Shown here piece by piece: positions 4,017 through 54,645 of a DNA stretch of 64,000 nucleotides (its first letter is position 1; each line of letters starts with the position of its first letter). The position numbers were made by a program, and so were the translations under genes. A model generated the notes under the pieces. It saw only the letters and a list, made by a program, of their open reading frames with translations. It was not told the DNA's origin and did no database searches. Origin of the DNA: a virus (taxonomy: Duplodnaviria > Caudoviricetes); the IMG/VR virus record IMGVR_UViG_3300026522_000024, positions 52,105 to 116,104 of that record. One strand, written 5' to 3'.

Positions 4017-4096
4017 TACAGATAAGCAATAAACTAGAGCAGCCTATACCACATGGGCTGCTCTATTGATAATAGTACTATTTATAGGAGGATAAC

Positions 4097-5056
4097 ATGA
4101 GAGGGCTACACTTAATTTTTGATGGTAATAATACCAGTTATAGAGCCAATGCCGTTACTGAATTGTACACTAAGCAGGGTGAACGTACTTCAGCTATCAT
4201 AGGCACTTTGAATATAACTCATGCAACAATGGAAAACCTCACTAAAGAACTCAAGATGCCTATTAAGGAAGTCATTTATGCTTGGGATATGGGGCATTCT
4301 CCACGTAGAACTTCTGTATTTCCAGAGTATAAAGGAAACAGGAAAAAGACCTTCACTCCAGAGGACTCAGAATGGATGGAGGAATTTATACATCAGGCTA
4401 ATGTATTACATGAAAACCTTCCTATGCTGGGAATTAAATCCTATCGAAAAAAGGGCTGGGAGGGTGACGATATAGTGCTAGGCATAGTGGAAGAAATTGA
4501 CCGAAAATCCCCAGAAGACATCTCAGTGATTATTTCTACTGATGAGGACTTTCACCAGCTTATTTCGCCATCTACGCACGTTTATTCACCAATTAAGAAA
4601 ATACTGTTTACTTTAGACAATTATAAGGAACTTACTGGCATAGACCATGAGAACTTTTTGACGTATAAAATACTTAAAGGTGACTCCTCTGATGGTATTC
4701 CAGGTATCCCAGGCATTGGAGAAAAGACAGCTAAAACACTTGTTAACACATATGGTTCTCTTGATACCTTGCTAGAAGCAGGAGAAGAACTGAGAAAATC
4801 CAAAAGAACAGCAAAGATTTTTACACACGAAGGGCTGTCTATTTTGGATAGAAACAATAAGCTGATAAACCTAAGAGATTATGTTGATTTGTCAGAGATA
4901 CAAGATGATATATCAGAACTCTTGGAAGATGAGCCTGTGGTTGATGAAAAAGCCACTAAAGCCTTTCTCATGAGATACCAGCTTACATCTATTTTGGTGA
5001 AATTCAAAAGTTGGATAGAAGTTTTCTCTGAGGCTGTTGATAATTTTTACGAATAG
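4097..5056 (+). CDS. 5'-3' exonuclease / flap endonuclease (RNase H-like)
   Basis: FDGNN, YKGNR, EGDDI, STDEDFHQL, H3TH motif GDSSDGIPGIPGIGEKTA. Confidence 0.93.
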   Translation: MRGLHLIFDGNNTSYRANAVTELYTKQGERTSAIIGTLNITHATMENLTKELKMPIKEVIYAWDMGHSPRRTSVFPEYKGNRKKTFTPEDSEWMEEFIHQANVLHENLPMLGIKSYRKKGWEGDDIVLGIVEEIDRKSPEDISVIISTDEDFHQLISPSTHVYSPIKKILFTLDNYKELTGIDHENFLTYKILKGDSSDGIPGIPGIGEKTAKTLVNTYGSLDTLLEAGEELRKSKRTAKIFTHEGLSILDRNNKLINLRDYVDLSEIQDDISELLEDEPVVDEKATKAFLMRYQLTSILVKFKSWIEVFSEAVDNFYE

Positions 5057-5084
5057 AATATTATGTAAATACAGGAGATTATTC

Positions 5085-5558
5085 ATGGAAAACATAGACA
5101 AATGGCTAAATAAATTAGCCAACAATAAAGTGAGGGCAGATAACTCAGTAGATAAAGACGGTGTAATCATGGTTTGTAATTTTAGGGAAGTACCAGATAC
5201 TAACACCATGATTTTTATGATAACTATGGTGAAAAATCATACAAAAACAAATACTGCTTTACCTCCACAGTTGTTCAGGAATATGATGAACATAGTGGAT
5301 AATTCCATAGGCTCAGAGGCATATAACTGCCCTGAAAGTATCAAGGAATCTGGACACTTTGAATCTTGTAACACAATACCTAAAGCTAATGACTGGCAGA
5401 AAAAGCTGAACTGCCATAGATTCTTTTTTATACCATACTTACATGTACTGTATATGGAAAATGCTTTATTTAGTGAAAACCACAAAAAACTCTTAAAAAG
5501 CTATGGGATTTCTGGTATACAGATAAAATCCTCATATAGCTTTTGTATTTCTTTGTAG
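5085..5558 (+). CDS. hypothetical protein
   Basis: ORF with AGGAG SD. Confidence 0.55.
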   Translation: MENIDKWLNKLANNKVRADNSVDKDGVIMVCNFREVPDTNTMIFMITMVKNHTKTNTALPPQLFRNMMNIVDNSIGSEAYNCPESIKESGHFESCNTIPKANDWQKKLNCHRFFFIPYLHVLYMENALFSENHKKLLKSYGISGIQIKSSYSFCISL

Positions 5559-5586
5559 GCTTTTGTTTAGTTATGAGGTGATTCAG

Positions 5587-6912
5587 ATGATAGTAGTAAA
5601 ACGTGATGGAAACAAGGCAGAGTTTAATGGACAGAAGATTGTGGACGCAATTTCTAAGGCAGGATTTGTAGATGATGCAGTCAAGCGTCAAATTGCTGAA
5701 GAGATAGCAATGGAAGCAAGTGAATTCGGAGATAGCATTACTGTAGAGCAGATTCAGGATTCAGTAGAGAGGAAATTGATGGCTTCCAACTATAAGAGTG
5801 TAGCAAGAGAGTATATTCGCTACAGATATAAGAGAGAAATCATCAGGAAGAATAACCAGCTTCAGCGTAATATACTGGAGATTGTTTCCGCTAAGAATGA
5901 GTACGTAAATGGTGAGAACTCTAACAAGAACCCACAGATACTTTCTACTCAGCGTGATTACATGGCTGGTGAAGTATCTAAGGATTTGACTATGAAGATG
6001 CTTCTTCCTGACGATATAGTAGAAGCACACAAGAAGGGCATTATTCATTTTCATGATTCAGATTACTTTGCTCAAACCATGCACAACTGCTGCTTGGTTA
6101 ATCTGGAGGATATGCTTCAGAATGGTACGGTTATCAGCAAGACACTCATTGAGAAGCCACACTCATTCGCTACAGCCTGTAACGTAGCAACCCAGATTAT
6201 GGCTCAGGTAGCATCTAACCAGTATGGTGGTCAGAGTGTTACTTTGTCTCATTTAGCACCATTCGTAGACGTATCTAGGCAGAAGATTCGTGCTGAGGTC
6301 AAGGCAGAGTATGAGAGAATGGTTGCTGATGGTGATATTCCTGCTATGCCCAGTGAGGAAAGCATATTCAAGATTGCTGAAGGCAGACTGAAGACTGAGG
6401 TTAAGAGAGGTGTTCAGACCATACAGTATCAGGTTAATACTCTTATGACCACTAATGGGCAAACTCCATTTGTTACGGTATTCATGTATATCAATGAAGT
6501 GCCTGATGGAACTATTCGTGATGACTTGGCAATGATTATCGAGGAAGTATTGAAACAGCGTTATCAAGGCACTAAGAACGAAAAAGGTGTGTGGGTAACA
6601 CCTGCCTTCCCTAAGCTGGTATATGTTACTACAGAAAACAACATCAAGGAAGGCACTAAATATTGGTATCTGACTGAGTTGGCTGCTAAGTGTACTGCTA
6701 GAAGGCTTGTACCTGACTATGTTTCTGAAAAGATGCTTATAAGATACAAGTATCCAGATGAAAATTTACAAACTATTAAATACCGTAGAGACCATTGGGG
6801 TGATGAGTATATGTATGGTAAAAACCCATTTAAGGAGTTGACTGACGATGAGTGTGAAATCCTTGAAAAGTATGCCAAAGAGTTACGTAAAGAACAGAAT
6901 TTTATGGTATAG
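5587..6912 (+). CDS. nrdD: anaerobic (class III) ribonucleotide reductase, N-terminal half with ATP cone
   Basis: VVKRDG ATP cone, ENSNKN, IHFHD, HNCCL, SNQYGGQS, GQTPFVT, FPKLVY, VPDYVSEK; stops before the MGCR finger loop. Confidence 0.92.
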   Translation: MIVVKRDGNKAEFNGQKIVDAISKAGFVDDAVKRQIAEEIAMEASEFGDSITVEQIQDSVERKLMASNYKSVAREYIRYRYKREIIRKNNQLQRNILEIVSAKNEYVNGENSNKNPQILSTQRDYMAGEVSKDLTMKMLLPDDIVEAHKKGIIHFHDSDYFAQTMHNCCLVNLEDMLQNGTVISKTLIEKPHSFATACNVATQIMAQVASNQYGGQSVTLSHLAPFVDVSRQKIRAEVKAEYERMVADGDIPAMPSEESIFKIAEGRLKTEVKRGVQTIQYQVNTLMTTNGQTPFVTVFMYINEVPDGTIRDDLAMIIEEVLKQRYQGTKNEKGVWVTPAFPKLVYVTTENNIKEGTKYWYLTELAAKCTARRLVPDYVSEKMLIRYKYPDENLQTIKYRRDHWGDEYMYGKNPFKELTDDECEILEKYAKELRKEQNFMV

Positions 6913-7090
6913 TCCGAGGTATCTGGAATTTTGTTTTTTAATAATGGCTCTGGTAATGGTACTCACCAAAAATAGCTTTTTACTGACACTTACTCTTTTA
7001 GTAGATACTGAATTTTGGTTTGACAATAAATGCATTAAAGATGTGTATAAGGTAACAAAAATAAGCTAATTGCAGACAGGAGGTCTAAAG

Positions 7091-7852
7091 ATGAACAAGA
7101 AAATTATCAATAAACGTCATAGTTTGTGGTATAATAAGCGCCGTCCCTATAACCTTTTTGTTGACCTCTCAAATTACATTAAAGTTGCCCTTCGTTCTTA
7201 CATCTTATGGATTGAAAAATATATTAAGGAAGATGAGTTACAAGAAGTATTGAAGAACTTTAATAAAGCTATGGGAAGTCAAGATAAAAATAAACAAGAC
7301 TTGCTTGATGTTCTAAAAAAGATATACTTTTCTTTTGAAGAAGCATCTCTTAATTTTCCTAATTCCCCTTGGTACATTTGGTGGAAGAACGAGAATTATA
7401 ATGATTGCTTAATTCCATATAATGCAAAAGAAGCCGAAAAGAACTATAGGTATGATATTAATAGTGGGATTAGACTATATGCTAATCTTATAGAATTTAT
7501 TTCTAGTACATGGGTGAGCTATAGTTATGTTATAACTGATAAAGCACGTATTTGTCAACTAGAAAGAATTGACAAAAATCTAAATAGAGTATATGCTTTT
7601 GATGATGACCAAGTATGGTATATTTATGAAGGTCTCATTGCTTTTAAGAACGCAAAAAGATATAGCGTTCCTTGCGATACGTCAGAAGATGGTTGGGAGA
7701 AACATCTTGATGATATGATTTTCACATTTCACGAGATTACTCATTGCCATGAATTTTCTGATAAATATGATGCTAAAGAGTACGAAAAGAAATACAATCG
7801 TGGAAAAGAGCTTTTTGGAAAGTGTTTTCTTGATTTGTGGGATTGTAAATAA
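7091..7852 (+). CDS. hypothetical protein inserted between the two nrdD halves
   Basis: AGGAGG SD, AT-rich; the C-terminus WEKHLDDMIFTF...GKELFGKCFLDLWD resembles a common phage hypothetical; no HNH, GIY-YIG or LAGLIDADG motif seen. Confidence 0.8.
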   Translation: MNKKIINKRHSLWYNKRRPYNLFVDLSNYIKVALRSYILWIEKYIKEDELQEVLKNFNKAMGSQDKNKQDLLDVLKKIYFSFEEASLNFPNSPWYIWWKNENYNDCLIPYNAKEAEKNYRYDINSGIRLYANLIEFISSTWVSYSYVITDKARICQLERIDKNLNRVYAFDDDQVWYIYEGLIAFKNAKRYSVPCDTSEDGWEKHLDDMIFTFHEITHCHEFSDKYDAKEYEKKYNRGKELFGKCFLDLWDCK

Positions 7853-7865
7853 TGAGGTGATTATC

Positions 7866-8969
7866 TTGAATACTTTGAAAAATGCTGCTCAAGAAATAAT
7901 GGAAAAACATGGAATATCAGAGAATCAAATTTGTCCCAAGGCTTATCCTCCTATGGGCTGTAGAAGTTTTTTGACTCCTGACTATGTACACTATAAGACA
8001 TATGGAAGAATGAATCAGGGTGTTGTAACAATCAACCTTCCTGATGTAGCACTCACAGCAGTCCGTGAGGCTAAGTCTAAGAATACTGATGTATATGATG
8101 AATTCTGGAGCATCTTTGAAGAAAGATTGGAATTGTGTCACAGAGGACTTCAGCAGCGTCATCAACGTCTTAAAGGTACTATTTCCGATGTGAGCCCAAT
8201 TCACTGGCAATATGGTGCTTTGGCTAGATTGAAAAAGGGCGAAAAGATTGATAAGCTGCTGTATGGTGGGTATTCAACTATTTCTCTGGGATATGCTGGT
8301 CTTTATGAGTGCGTAAAAGCTATCACTGGTAAATCTCATACGGATGATTCAGCTAAACCATTTGCTATGGCTATTATGCGTAAGTTAAATGATAAGTGTG
8401 CTGAATGGAGAAAGGCTGAGAATATAGCATACAGTCTGTATGGTACTCCTATTGAGAGCACTACAGGGAAGTTTGCTAGGTGTTTACAGAAGAGGTTTGG
8501 TATCATTAAGGACATCACAGACCACGATTACATCACCAATAGCTACCATGTAAATGTTAGAGAAGAAATTGACCCATTTAAGAAGCTCAATTTTGAGGCT
8601 GAATTCCAGCAGCTCAGTCCAGGCGGTGCTATTAGCTACATTGAGACTGGTCACCTTGAAGATAACATTCCAGCAGTATTGGAAGTTATAAAGTACATGT
8701 ATGACCACATTTTGTATGCTGAGTTGAATACTAAATCTGACTACTGCCATGAGTGTGGATATACTGGGGATATTGCTATTTATACTGATGAACATGGTAA
8801 GTTAGGTTGGAAGTGCCCCCAGTGTGGAAATACCAATCAGAACAAGATGAATGTAGCAAGACGTACATGCGGTTATATAGGAGCAAATTTCTGGTCTCAA
8901 GGAAGAACTGCAGAAATCAAGGATAGATTCGTTCACTTAGGAGGAAATGGCATAACAACTAAGGAGTGA
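7866..8969 (+). CDS. nrdD: anaerobic ribonucleotide reductase, C-terminal half (finger-loop Cys, Zn site, glycyl radical)
   Basis: Own SD GAGGTGA plus TTG start; MGCRSFL, GRMNQGVVTINL, YGTPIES, YITNSYHV, CHECG..CPQCG, RRTCGYIG. Confidence 0.92.
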   Translation: MNTLKNAAQEIMEKHGISENQICPKAYPPMGCRSFLTPDYVHYKTYGRMNQGVVTINLPDVALTAVREAKSKNTDVYDEFWSIFEERLELCHRGLQQRHQRLKGTISDVSPIHWQYGALARLKKGEKIDKLLYGGYSTISLGYAGLYECVKAITGKSHTDDSAKPFAMAIMRKLNDKCAEWRKAENIAYSLYGTPIESTTGKFARCLQKRFGIIKDITDHDYITNSYHVNVREEIDPFKKLNFEAEFQQLSPGGAISYIETGHLEDNIPAVLEVIKYMYDHILYAELNTKSDYCHECGYTGDIAIYTDEHGKLGWKCPQCGNTNQNKMNVARRTCGYIGANFWSQGRTAEIKDRFVHLGGNGITTKE

Positions 8970-9466
8970 AACTTATGAATATACATGGAATAACTCAGTT
9001 TGACACAGCTAATGGGTTAGGAATTGGTACAGTACTTTGGGTAAGCGGTTGCGAGCACCATTGTTTGAATTGTCATAATCCTCAGACTTGGGATAGAAAA
9101 TCTGGTAGGTACTTTGACCATACTGGTAAGGATTTGGATTTTCTGTTGAAAACTTTAGAGCCAGACTATATATCTCGACTGACCATATCTGGTGGTGACC
9201 CACTTCACCCATTCAACAGGTGGACAGTAGGATTTATACTGAATGCTGTAAAGCAGGTTCATCCAGAAGTAAAGACTTGGTTGTATACTGGATATGAGTG
9301 GGAGCAAGCCAAGGACATCATAAAGCCTTTTGCGTATGCTTTGGATTATCTGGTAGATGGGAGATTCATTGAATCCTTGAAAGATTTGAACCTTCCATAT
9401 AGAGGAAGCAGTAACCAACATATAATAGATGTGAAAACTGGAAATATTGTTGATTTTTCCAAGTAA
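8966..9466 (+). CDS. nrdG: anaerobic RNR activating radical-SAM protein
   Basis: CEHHCLNCHN, SGGDPL, YTGY, LVDGRF, RGSSNQ. Confidence 0.95.
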   Translation: MKLMNIHGITQFDTANGLGIGTVLWVSGCEHHCLNCHNPQTWDRKSGRYFDHTGKDLDFLLKTLEPDYISRLTISGGDPLHPFNRWTVGFILNAVKQVHPEVKTWLYTGYEWEQAKDIIKPFAYALDYLVDGRFIESLKDLNLPYRGSSNQHIIDVKTGNIVDFSK

Positions 9467-53544: not shown

Positions 53545-54645
53545 ATGAAGAGAACACCAATATTTATTGAAGAATCTTGGGAGGAATTTAAAGGCAATTA
53601 TGGATACATCTATTTAACTACTGATGTTAAACATCATAGGATGTACGTAGGCAAAAAGGAATTACCATTTTTTGATAAACACTATTTTGGTAGTGGTACT
53701 TTATTGACTAGAGCATATCGAAAAAGACCTAATGACTTTGAGTGTAAACCTATTAGTTGGGCTAAAACCAAAGAGGAACTAAATGAGCAAGAAAGACATT
53801 GGATTGAATTTTTAGAGTGTCTATCTGACGTAGACAAGCCATTATCACAGAGGGCTTATTACAACATTTTGCCAGGTGGTGATGGTGGTAGATTGACTGG
53901 AGAAAGCCTTCAGAAAATGAAGGTATCTCGTAAAGGTAAGTGCTTAGGAAAAGATAACCCAAATTTTGGAGGTAAATCACACACAGAGGAATCCAGAGAA
54001 AAATTAAGACAAGCCATGTTAGGTAAACATTTATCAGAAGAAACTAGACATAAAATTAGTTTAGGTAACACTGGTAAAAAGATGTCTGAAGAATTTAAGC
54101 AAAAACTAAGAGAAATGCATCTTGGTACAACTTTATCAGAAGAAACCAGACAAAGAATTTCTAAGAATAGAAAAGGTAAAATGACTGGCAGCAGCCATCC
54201 TCTTTTTGGTACTCATTTAACACAAGAACAAAAAGATAACTTGAGAGAAAAGAACCTGTATGGAAAATCCCCTAGAGCCAAAAAAGTGTACAAATTTGAT
54301 TTACAGATGAACCTATTGTTTGTGTATGAATCAAGAAGTCAAGTATCTATAGATGGATTTACTCCTCCTAAAATTTCTGGTGTATGCAATAAGAATGACA
54401 GGTCAAATGATACTACTTACACTTATCATGGATATATTTTTTCTAGTTACCCTGATTACCATATGAAATCCAATATCAAAGAAGTGTTAGATGTATCAAT
54501 GCCAGATTACCAAGAAAAACGCAGTAAGCAACTATCAGAAATAAACATGGGCAATTCTCATCCCCATACAGAAGAATCTAAAGAAAAACTAAGGCAAGCT
54601 ATGTATAAGAGGTTATATGGCATTACAGATGAAGAAGGTGATTAA
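53545..54645 (+). CDS. free-standing GIY-YIG homing endonuclease with NUMOD3 repeats
   Basis: GYIYLT..MYVGK..YFGSG..E..WI..YNI..GG; repeated H.SEETR.KIS; NUMOD1-like segment. Confidence 0.92.
   Translation: MKRTPIFIEESWEEFKGNYGYIYLTTDVKHHRMYVGKKELPFFDKHYFGSGTLLTRAYRKRPNDFECKPISWAKTKEELNEQERHWIEFLECLSDVDKPLSQRAYYNILPGGDGGRLTGESLQKMKVSRKGKCLGKDNPNFGGKSHTEESREKLRQAMLGKHLSEETRHKISLGNTGKKMSEEFKQKLREMHLGTTLSEETRQRISKNRKGKMTGSSHPLFGTHLTQEQKDNLREKNLYGKSPRAKKVYKFDLQMNLLFVYESRSQVSIDGFTPPKISGVCNKNDRSNDTTYTYHGYIFSSYPDYHMKSNIKEVLDVSMPDYQEKRSKQLSEINMGNSHPHTEESKEKLRQAMYKRLYGITDEEGD

What the first reader, a model, noticed from the sequence alone, without database searches (positions are those of the whole stretch)
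5587..8969. Class III ribonucleotide reductase (nrdD) fractured into two genes by an unrelated ORF
SEEN: the N-half ends shortly after VPDYVSEK with a non-canonical tail of about 55 aa. The C-half has its own SD (GAGGTGA) and TTG at 7866, in a different frame, with about 25 extra aa before AYPPMGCRSFL. A 253-aa ORF (7091-7852) lies between them. All catalytic motifs look intact (HNCC in one half; MGCR, the Zn site and RTCGY in the other) and nrdG follows. I found no intein termini (C...HN) and no complete group I core. KNOWN: Aeromonas phage Aeh1 nrdA (class I) is split by mobE and assembles a composite active site. INFERENCE: this is a two-chain glycyl-radical RNR. The added tails (ECEILEKYAKEL / LNTLKNAAQEI, similar amphipathic helices) could aid association. 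Unusually, the insert is not a recognisable homing endonuclease.
Basis: partly seen in the sequence, partly recalled or inferred. Interest (0 to 1): 0.8.

Follow-up and report, generated by a model that had tools for sequence, protein, structure and literature searches.

The report
Phage nrdD split, endonuclease later replaced
A gut phage carries its only ribonucleotide reductase gene (anaerobic nrdD) as two separately translated genes; relatives show that a selfish HNH endonuclease gene originally sat at the break and was later swapped here for an unrelated gene, and both halves stay under strong selection, so the two-piece enzyme very probably works.

Summary
The N-half is 5587-6912, a 253-aa ORF is 7091-7852, the C-half is 7866-8969 (TTG start behind GAGGTGA), and nrdG follows.

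- **Not an intron, intein or pseudogene.** There is no Rfam group I hit and no Hint domain or intein termini. dN/dS against the near-identical split relative L114 is 0.03 for the N-core and 0.04 for the C-core.
- **Same split in relatives.** Six other phage lineages (L114, L113, L121/L122, L123, L124, L125) have the same split at the same residue. Each carries a 178-198-aa HNH + NUMOD3 + zinc-ribbon homing endonuclease gene between the halves.
- **The endonuclease is gone here.** Only its first ~35 codons (6862-6968, frameshifted) and last 12 nt (7841-7852) remain. The rest was replaced by a foreign block, 96% identical to free-standing copies elsewhere: the 3' stump of a 102-aa gene plus ORF253.
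- **The tail and leader are not junk.** They are the two halves of an ~85-aa insertion module that occurs unsplit in other NrdDs (P0057-P0060, L126).
- **Polymorphism.** A 96%-identical relative (L019) has an uninterrupted, short-linker nrdD.

The closest precedent is phage Aeh1 nrdA/mobE. This scan has already reported endonuclease-split nrdD on other DNA, but those reports share no sequence with this element. I class it as a new variant of a known kind.

The parts
5587..6912 (+). nrdD N-half: ATP-cone, NRDD profile 1-250 with HNCC, and a 59-aa C-terminal tail
   Evidence: Pfam. PDB match to T4 NrdD residues 5-273. Omega 0.028 against L114.
6733..6909 (+). Tail: first half of the ~85-aa insertion module. 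Conserved pattern KYP..L..IK.RRD.WG.E.IYG.NPF..LT..EC.IL..Y.
   Evidence: Conserved in seven split lineages and in five unsplit NrdDs. Omega about 0.17 against L113. AF2 predicts a C-terminal helix at residues 420-440, pLDDT about 75.
6862..6968 (+). 5' remnant of the HNH-NUMOD3 homing endonuclease gene: about 35 codons with a 1-nt deletion near 6938, cut off at the first His of the HNH motif
   Evidence: The window is 96.7% identical to L114 up to 6968. Junction alignment. A search of the phage's own genome finds only HEG residues 1-25.
6969..7069 (+). 3' stump (33 codons plus stop) of an unrelated 102-aa phage gene, brought in with ORF253
   Evidence: 96% identical to L013 and 90% to L004-L006 from 6969 onward. 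Translations. Single copy in the phage's own genome.
7091..7852 (+). ORF253: foreign gene of unknown function. Its last two codons and stop come from the endonuclease gene's 3' end.
   Evidence: 15 homologues, all free-standing outside nrdD in the contexts read. They end in ...LWD, against ...LWDCK here. No Pfam family. AF2 model is all-helical with pLDDT 57, and there is no PDB fold match. Omega 0.25-0.35.
7841..7865 (+). 3' end of the endonuclease gene (7841-7852, entered through 'gatt' microhomology) and the conserved intergenic stretch with SD GAGGTGA (7854-7860)
   Evidence: Three-way alignment. SD and start are conserved in all seven lineages.
7866..8969 (+). nrdD C-half: leader (7866-7940, second half of the insertion module), MGCRS Cys loop, zinc ribbon, glycyl-radical motif RRTCGY
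   Evidence: Pfam NRDD 256-562 plus Gly_radical. PDB match to T4 NrdD residues 286-603. Omega 0.041 against L114.
8966..9466 (+). nrdG activase (radical SAM)
   Evidence: Pfam Fer4_12/Radical_SAM. Omega 0.064 against L114.

Best explanation
This is a 'genes-in-pieces' class III ribonucleotide reductase.

**How the split arose (inferred from comparison).** In an ancestor of this phage clade, a free-standing HNH-NUMOD3-zinc-ribbon homing endonuclease gene (HEG) came to lie inside nrdD. It sits in the variable loop of a lineage-specific ~85-aa insertion module, just upstream of the thiyl-radical Cys loop (MGCRS; between T4 NrdD residues 273 and 286).

**What the arrangement looks like (shown).**
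- The N-half ends with the first part of the module.
- The HEG overlaps the N-half's stop.
- The C-half starts 0-13 nt after the HEG stop in five of the six relatives (it overlaps the HEG end in L125), behind its own SD, and begins with the second part of the module.

**How it works (inferred).** The two polypeptides are made separately and assemble non-covalently, probably helped by the two module halves. Together they form the barrel with a composite active site: HNCC on one chain; the Cys loop, zinc site and glycyl radical on the other. NrdG activates the complex.

**What is special in this phage (shown by comparison with L114 and L013).** The HEG was then lost. Illegitimate recombination at 1-5-nt microhomologies replaced it, from the first His of HNH to its last four codons, with a piece of another phage. 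That piece is the 3' stump of a 102-aa gene plus the 253-aa ORF. The swap left the split, the N-half stop, and the C-half SD and start untouched.
For: 1. **Same split with an HEG in six relatives.** L114 is 96.7% and 94.7% nt identical on the two flanks; L113, L121/L122, L123, L124 and L125 also carry it.
2. **The middle ORF is an HNH homing endonuclease.** It has the motif GTHHxV..GG..N..H..H. It matches PHROG homing/HNH endonuclease families at E 1e-5 to 1e-7, weakly matches Pfam NUMOD3, and aligns to the HNH motif of PDB chains. Its omega is 0.07-0.16.
3. **HEG remnants and exact junctions in the window**.
4. **The replacing block is foreign.** It is 90-96% identical to free-standing loci and is single copy in this phage's genome.
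5. **Purifying selection.** N-core omega 0.028 (41 synonymous, 5 nonsynonymous changes); C-core 0.041; tail about 0.17; nrdG 0.064.
6. **Translation signals.** Stop, SD and start are conserved in all seven lineages. No terminator-like site lies between the halves on the + strand.
7. **No other RNR.** No class I/II large subunit is found in the complete 116-kb genome with direct terminal repeats.
8. **No intron.** No group I model hit in the window or in the L114 element.
9. **HEG-minus allele.** L019 is 96% identical and uninterrupted. Homology breaks at 6734 and recovers only after about 8005-8065, as expected for a co-conversion or recombination tract.
10. **Unsplit NrdDs with the module.** P0060 (798 aa, full length), P0057-P0059 and L126 carry tail and leader as one in-frame module.
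11. **One clade.** All seven split alleles fall in one clade of the NrdD tree. Support is moderate (89/85 for the N-core), and two intact alleles, L019 and L038, sit inside it.
Against: - There is no transcript, protein or activity data. Assembly of the two chains is inferred from conservation only.
- The HEG-to-ORF253 replacement is seen in this one record. A 30-mer across the left junction has no exact match in the viral or JGI metagenome collections. Assembly chimerism is therefore not formally excluded, though two crossovers at 1-5-nt microhomology would be odd for an assembler.
- The C-half uses TTG here and in L114, against ATG in the other five lineages.
- The direction of events is unresolved: the module may have existed before the HEG, or the unsplit forms may derive from HEG loss.
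- Rfam's group I model also missed the ORF-less inserts at MG^CRS in relatives, so a negative Rfam result alone is weak evidence.
Confidence: 0.8

Rival explanations
1. [quoted passage not shown] The mRNA is spliced and one full-length NrdD is made.
For: nrdD is a known intron target: T4 has an I-TevII intron. Relatives carry ORF-less inserts with stops in all frames at MG^CRS, 19 codons downstream. The one in L126 has a U before it and a G at its end. The 5' part of the insert folds somewhat better than shuffles, z = -2.7.
Against: - No Intron_gpI hit, even at E<=10, in the window or in L114.
- The 5' 130-180 nt is protein-coding under purifying selection and conserved as peptide in 7 split and 5 unsplit NrdDs.
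- The homology-defined boundaries (6732-6734 / 7895-7897) give no terminal G.
- The C-half has a conserved SD and start in every lineage.
- Part of the insert is a stump of an unrelated gene.
Confidence: 0.04
2. nrdD is a decaying pseudogene, broken by insertion of foreign DNA. The open frames are leftovers.
For: The middle region is a patchwork: a frameshifted HEG stump, a gene stump and a foreign ORF. The C-half starts with TTG. The host may supply dNTPs.
Against: - Omega is 0.03-0.04 in both halves since divergence from L114, with about 100 synonymous against about 16 nonsynonymous changes. dS is saturated and pN only 0.16-0.18 against L113.
- All catalytic motifs are intact.
- Seven lineages keep both halves, and six of them have nrdG next to them. 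L125 has a NUMOD3 ORF after the C-half and no nrdG within the DNA read.
- It is the only RNR in the genome.
Confidence: 0.05
3. The halves are rejoined by protein trans-splicing (a 'fractured gene' with a split intein), or the tail is a dead intein remnant acting as a clasp.
For: Fractured RNR genes with split inteins and a HEG between the halves are known (Dassa 2009, PMC2677866, seen). Earlier notes of this scan report such nrdD cases on other DNA.
Against: - No Hint/intein Pfam hit.
- The tail starts with K/M after SEK, not C/S/A. The leader has no ...HN followed by C/S/T.
- Tail plus leader total only about 85 aa. They persist as an in-frame, unspliced-looking module in the full-length NrdD P0060 and others.
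Confidence: 0.03
4. The ORF253 block is an assembly chimera. The real phage still has the intact HEG, as in L114.
For: The junction is unique to this record. ORF253-bearing phages occur in similar gut samples.
Against: - It would need two switch points only 870 nt apart, at 1-nt and 4-5-nt microhomologies. That is far below assembler k-mer sizes.
- The extra 1-nt deletion in the HEG stump is also specific to this record.
- The contig is a complete genome with terminal repeats.

Even if this rival were true, the split-nrdD conclusion stands.
Confidence: 0.06

Closest known systems
Aeromonas phage Aeh1 NrdA-a / mobE / NrdA-b 'genes-in-pieces' class Ia RNR (Friedrich et al. 2007, as cited in PMC10448857; Crona et al. 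2011, PMC3045599)
   Same: - An RNR catalytic subunit is cut into two separately translated genes by a free-standing HNH-type homing endonuclease gene.
- No intron or intein is involved.
- Active-site cysteines are divided between the chains.
- Extra peptides at the break are candidates for assembly.
- The cut lies in the 10-stranded barrel next to the finger loop.
   Different: - The enzyme is class III (glycyl-radical, oxygen-sensitive), not class Ia.
- The cut is before the Cys loop rather than after it.
- The peptides at the break are the two halves of a module that also exists unsplit in relatives. In Aeh1 they are described as unique sequences that arose at insertion.
- The arrangement is conserved in at least 7 diverged lineages.
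- In this phage the endonuclease gene has been replaced by an unrelated gene.
- Nothing has been tested biochemically here.
Fractured genes with split inteins and a HEG between the halves (Dassa et al. 2009, PMC2677866)
   Same: The gene order is N-part, endonuclease gene, C-part. RNR genes are frequent targets.
   Different: There are no intein termini or Hint domain. The halves are expected to stay as two chains.
T4 nrdD (sunY) group I intron with I-TevII, and mobC between nrdD and nrdG
   Same: The same gene is hit by mobile endonuclease elements. The nrdD-nrdG neighbourhood is a hot spot.
   Different: T4's interruption is a self-splicing intron at another site (near ...QAYE|...VNTLFSSNGQTPF). 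Here no intron core is found and the halves are translated separately.
PFL / GrcA (YfiD) 'spare part' glycyl-radical protein (from my own knowledge, not checked here)
   Same: A glycyl-radical enzyme working as two non-covalently associated chains.
   Different: GrcA replaces an oxygen-cleaved C-terminal fragment of PFL. Here the cut is genetic, lies mid-barrel, and is permanent.

Membership tests
HEG-fractured 'genes-in-pieces' RNR (Aeh1 nrdA/mobE type) | A gene that is single in relatives is present as two ORFs, each with its own stop or start signals | tested here: met
   N-half stop at 6910-6912; SD plus TTG at 7854-7866. The uninterrupted allele is in L019. Signals are conserved in 7 lineages.
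HEG-fractured 'genes-in-pieces' RNR (Aeh1 nrdA/mobE type) | A free-standing homing endonuclease gene lies between the halves | tested here: not met
   In the window only a 107-nt 5' stump and a 12-nt 3' end remain. The feature is met in six relatives: L113, L114, L121/L122, L123, L124, L125.
HEG-fractured 'genes-in-pieces' RNR (Aeh1 nrdA/mobE type) | No RNA or protein splicing element restores continuity | tested here: met
   No Rfam group I hit. No Hint domain or intein termini. Splicing itself was not assayed.
HEG-fractured 'genes-in-pieces' RNR (Aeh1 nrdA/mobE type) | The two chains assemble into an active enzyme, and the tails are needed | not testable with these tools
   Indirect only: omega 0.03-0.04 for the halves and about 0.17 for the tail; sole RNR in the genome.
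Class III RNR NrdD with NrdG | ATP-cone/NRDD fold, HNCC, Cys loop MGCRS, C-terminal zinc ribbon, glycyl-radical motif RRTCGY, adjacent radical-SAM activase | tested here: met
   Pfam; PDB matches to T4 NrdD and others; motifs read.
Group I intron | Conserved catalytic core (P3-P9); U before the 5' splice site and G at the 3' end | tested here: not met
   No RF00028 hit at E<=10. The homology-defined ends give no terminal G. The 5' part is a conserved coding sequence.
Split intein (fractured gene sensu Dassa 2009) | N-intein starting with C/S/A directly after the N-extein; C-intein ending in (H)N followed by C/S/T; Hint fold | tested here: not met
   Alignments. No Hint/intein Pfam hit. No profile-profile test against inteins was run.
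HNH homing endonuclease (the relatives' middle ORF) | HNH beta-beta-alpha metal motif plus a DNA-binding module (NUMOD3), with presence/absence polymorphism at one site | tested here: met
   - The motif aligns to PDB HNH domains.
- PHROG 655/12434 at E 1e-5 to 1e-7.
- NUMOD3 scores 17-18 bits, below Pfam's 20.4 cut-off.
- The HEG-minus allele L019 is 96% identical.
- Cleavage was not assayed.

The most novel reading that the evidence does not exclude
The ~85-aa module may have begun as the pair of peptides created by the endonuclease insertion. It may later have been welded into one in-frame internal domain wherever the endonuclease gene was deleted (L126, P0057-P0060). On this reading, mobile-element 'scar' peptides became a permanent new domain of NrdD. 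In this phage, loss of the nuclease would then have frozen the enzyme as an obligate two-chain glycyl-radical reductase.
Probability: 0.25. Interest if true: 0.65.

Novelty: new variant of a known kind. Interest (0 to 1): 0.55.

Why it matters
- **Precedent.** Only one endonuclease-split RNR, Aeh1 class Ia NrdA, has been characterised. A 2023 paper still cites it as the single instance (PMC10448857).
- **Enzyme class.** If the two halves work, the principle extends to an oxygen-sensitive glycyl-radical enzyme. Its radical-bearing chain and part of its active site would then sit on different polypeptides.
- **Test set.** There is a natural panel for testing what holds the pieces together: split with nuclease (L114), split without nuclease (this phage), fused with the module (P0060), and short-linker (L019).
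- **Evolution.** A gene can stay in pieces after the selfish element that occupies the break in relatives has gone.
- **Limits.** The kind is known, this scan has already met endonuclease-split nrdD on other DNA, and nothing here has been tested at the bench.

Tried and rejected
- **Rfam.** Searches of the window (6300-8300 and 6700-7120), of L114's element, of six relatives and of L126 gave no group I hit in any nrdD insert. The one hit was in another gene of L023.
- **Close relatives in the phage collection.** Megablast found none.
- **Origin of the tail.** tblastn against phages, a scan of viral contigs and a search of the phage's own genome found nothing beyond the phage itself.
- **ORF253.** Pfam, PHROGs, an AF2 model (pLDDT 57, all-helical), Foldseek against PDB and the ESM Atlas gave no function and no nuclease fold.
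- **HEG homologues in IMG/VR.** None were found. They turned up only in the large protein database.
- **Independent copy of the HEG/ORF253 junction.** Exact 30-mer scans of metagenome and viral contigs were empty.
- **AF2 of the N-half alone.** The core is moderate and the tail partly helical. This is not decisive for assembly.
- **An alternative splice pair** (U at 6726, G at 7901) was considered and rejected. It needs an undetected core, and it leaves 8 nt of L019-identical 'intron' unexplained.
- **Early BLAST extensions over the tail** (Vibrio phages, L001) were chance extensions into intact NrdDs.
Full report
**1. What is in the window**

The window is part of a complete 116,104-bp IMG/VR phage record with direct terminal repeats.
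- An ORF at 5587-6912 carries an ATP-cone and NRDD profile positions 1-250. It ends with VPDYVSEK plus 59 further residues.
- A 253-aa ORF lies at 7091-7852 and has no Pfam family.
- An ORF in another frame has a good Shine-Dalgarno site (GAGGTGA, 7854-7860) and a TTG at 7866. It carries NRDD positions 256-562 and the Gly_radical domain.
- nrdG lies at 8966-9466.
- HNCC is on the first chain. MGCRS, the zinc ribbon and RRTCGY are on the second.
- Against solved structures, the halves match T4 NrdD residues 5-273 and 286-603. The cut therefore lies just before the loop that carries Cys290. The identification of that loop as the thiyl-radical finger loop is from my own knowledge of T4 NrdD.

**2. 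Not an intron, intein or pseudogene**

- Rfam finds no group I intron in the window, even at E<=10, nor in the equivalent element of the relative L114.
- No Hint/intein domain is present.
- The T4 nrdD intron lies at a different site.
- The 116-kb genome has no class I/II RNR large subunit. NrdD/NrdG is its only RNR.

**3. An uninterrupted allele in a near-identical phage**

L019 (IMG/VR contig, 96% nt identity over window 4081-6734) has a continuous nrdD.
- Homology breaks after 6734 (…SEK plus 'at') and resumes at 7943.
- Identity downstream is only about 50% to about 8005, 83% to about 8065, and then 90-95%. Upstream it is 98% right up to the break.
- A swapped patch of this kind, extending into the downstream flank, is what a co-conversion or recombination tract beside a mobile endonuclease gene looks like.

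**4. The 253-aa ORF is a secondary passenger**

- Its 15 homologues (42-93% identity) lie, in every context I could read, among small hypothetical phage genes and never in nrdD.
- At DNA level, window 6969-7845 is 96% identical to L013 and 90% to L004-L006.
- That block begins in the middle of an unrelated 102-aa gene, so the window holds only the last 33 codons of that gene.
- The block ends at the ORF's last codons. Natural copies end ...LWD, while the window's copy ends ...LWDCK.
- The terminator-like hairpin that follows the ORF in L004 and L013 was not brought in.
- The block is single copy in this genome.
- The ORF's function stays unknown. It has no Pfam or informative PHROG hit. AF2 gives an all-helical model with pLDDT 57. 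There is no PDB fold match and no Atlas lead.
- Its omega of 0.25-0.35 suggests a live gene.

**5. What occupies the break in relatives**

A search with the 62 residues at the N-half's end found two other NrdD N-halves with the same tail. Their contigs are syntenic with the window: gp32, RecA, 5'-3' exonuclease, nrdD, nrdG and ligase.
- L114 is 96.7% identical to the window up to 6968 and 94.7% identical from 7841 onward.
- In L114, 463 nt of a 193-aa ORF take the place of the window's 872 nt in between.
- L113 (about 72% nt identity) has the same layout with a 198-aa ORF.

That ORF is a homing endonuclease.
- It has an HNH motif (GTHHxVL.KDGG…N.VHLS…HK.AH) that aligns to HNH domains in the PDB.
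- It matches PHROG 'homing endonuclease' and 'HNH endonuclease' families at E 1e-5 to 1e-7.
- It has a weak NUMOD3 hit and a C-terminal CxxC…CxxC.
- Its omega is 0.07-0.16.

Four further homologues (50-66% identity) all sit between an NrdD N-half (408-439 aa) and a C-half (360-369 aa), in phages with partly different neighbourhoods.

The junctions in the window are exact.
- L114-type sequence runs to …ggtactcacca, which is the first His of HNH. There is one extra 1-nt deletion near 6938.
- L013-type sequence then starts at 6969.
- L013-type ends and L114-type resumes within 'gatt' at 7841-7845.
- The phage's own genome retains only residues 1-25 of the endonuclease.

So the endonuclease gene was deleted and replaced by illegitimate recombination. 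Its last four codons, its stop, and the SD and start of the C-half were left in place.

**6. Evidence that the two-piece enzyme is in use**

I computed dN/dS by the Nei-Gojobori method.
- Window against L114, both split: N-core omega 0.028 (41 synonymous, 5 nonsynonymous changes); C-core 0.041 (59 against 11).
- Against L113, synonymous sites are saturated while pN is 0.16-0.18.
- The tail, outside the overlap with the endonuclease ORF, gives omega of about 0.17.
- nrdG gives 0.064.

In all seven lineages the N-half has its own stop. In five of the six relatives the C-half starts 0-13 nt after the endonuclease stop; in L125 it overlaps the endonuclease's end. All sit behind AGGAGG-like sites, with ATG in five lineages and TTG in the window and L114. 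No terminator-like site lies between the halves on the + strand.

In the NrdD trees the seven split alleles fall in one clade. Support is moderate (89/85 for the N-core), and the clade also holds two intact alleles, L019 and L038. Endonuclease identity falls in the same order as NrdD identity. This fits long co-residence with occasional loss.

**7. The tail and the leader**

The tail is conserved across the split lineages. Its pattern is KYP..L..IK.RRD.WG.E.I(Y/W)G.NPF..(L/M)T..EC.(I/V)L..Y.

A profile search of 1.84 billion representatives found seven proteins at E<=0.001. The weakest (P0061) is an HNH/NUMOD3-type repeat protein, not an NrdD. Four others carry tail and leader in one chain.
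- P0060 is a full-length 798-aa NrdD with ATP-cone, NRDD in two stretches and Gly_radical.
- P0057, P0058 and P0059 are the others.
- A metagenome contig, L126, shows the same fusion at DNA level.

In the alignment the break of the split forms falls in the variable, often acidic connector. That connector lies between the conserved 'EC.IL..Y' helix and the conserved 'A..I(M/I).K(Y/H)' segment.

Short-linker alleles (L019, L038, L001) lack the whole ~85-aa module. They also differ in the loop just after the Cys loop: TP(Y/F)IDKE…KYYGRF against TPD.(I/V)HYK.YGRM.

So the 'non-canonical' peptides are the two halves of a module that can exist unsplit. AF2 of the N-half alone predicts a helix for tail residues 420-440 with pLDDT of about 75, which is not decisive.

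I could not settle which came first. The options are a module into whose loop the endonuclease gene inserted, or fused forms that arose by in-frame loss of the endonuclease. I lean towards the first, because the fused forms are diverse and P0060 is distant.

**8. Comparison with the literature**

- The closest case is Aeh1 nrdA split by mobE. There the tails are essential for activity (PMC3045599).
- A 2013 survey lists six split nrdD genes in phages. Those I read about in it are put down to introns, inteins or unknown causes (PMC3653736).
- A 2023 paper still speaks of 'at least one instance' of an endonuclease-split reductase (PMC10448857).
- Earlier notes of this scan report endonuclease-split nrdD on other DNA. 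Word look-ups with this tail and this endonuclease found none of them to be the same element.

**9. Verdict**

The gene is a genes-in-pieces class III RNR of the Aeh1 kind, with two twists.
- The break lies inside a module that is continuous in relatives.
- The endonuclease gene has been replaced here by an unrelated gene, so the split now persists without its nuclease.

Function of the two-chain enzyme is inferred, not shown.

Noticed in passing
window 6848-7069: A 73-aa chimeric ORF. The endonuclease's first ~25 residues are joined, through the 1-nt deletion near 6938, in frame to the last 33 residues of the foreign 102-aa gene. It overlaps the N-half's end and stops 21 nt before ORF253. It is probably junk, but it keeps ribosomes moving up to ORF253.
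   Followed up: partly
window 6893-6945: A long AU-rich hairpin followed by a U-run, lying over the N-half stop and the endonuclease's RILWY-SPR-YLEFC codons. It is also present in L114. The 6727-7090 region folds with z = -2.7. It could damp expression of the middle gene, as is known for T4 endonuclease genes. Conservation was not tested.
   Followed up: no
window 53545-54645: A 366-aa free-standing SegE-like GIY-YIG plus NUMOD3 homing endonuclease gene elsewhere in the same phage.
   Followed up: partly
L022:6116-7164, L027:6116-7152: Inteins (C…HN|C) inserted at MG^CRS of nrdD, 19 codons downstream of the split site.
   Followed up: partly
L003:4037-4875 (also L034, L035, L037 and others): An intein inserted at HNC^C of nrdD in many ~69%-identical gut phages.
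   Followed up: no
L021:6190-6500, L023:6190-6400, L025:5720-6180, L126:3285-3655: ORF-less inserts of about 230-430 nt with stops in all frames at M^G / MG^C of nrdD. L126's has U before it and G at its end, as a group I intron would. Rfam does not recognise any of them.
   Followed up: partly
L003:6488-6767, L021:7412-7731, L126 after 4578: Further inserts of about 280-320 nt at the RRTCG^ glycyl-radical motif of nrdD. L126 also has one at TTNG^Q.
   Followed up: no
L125:3650-4510: In this split-nrdD relative, a second NUMOD3 endonuclease-like ORF follows the C-half where nrdG normally lies.
   Followed up: no
L001 (MT835498.1): This 'Bacteriophage sp.' record has nrdD with a frameshift after HNCCLVNL. 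It is flanked by a pullulanase-like gene and a MATE-like transporter gene, so it looks bacterial rather than phage.
   Followed up: no
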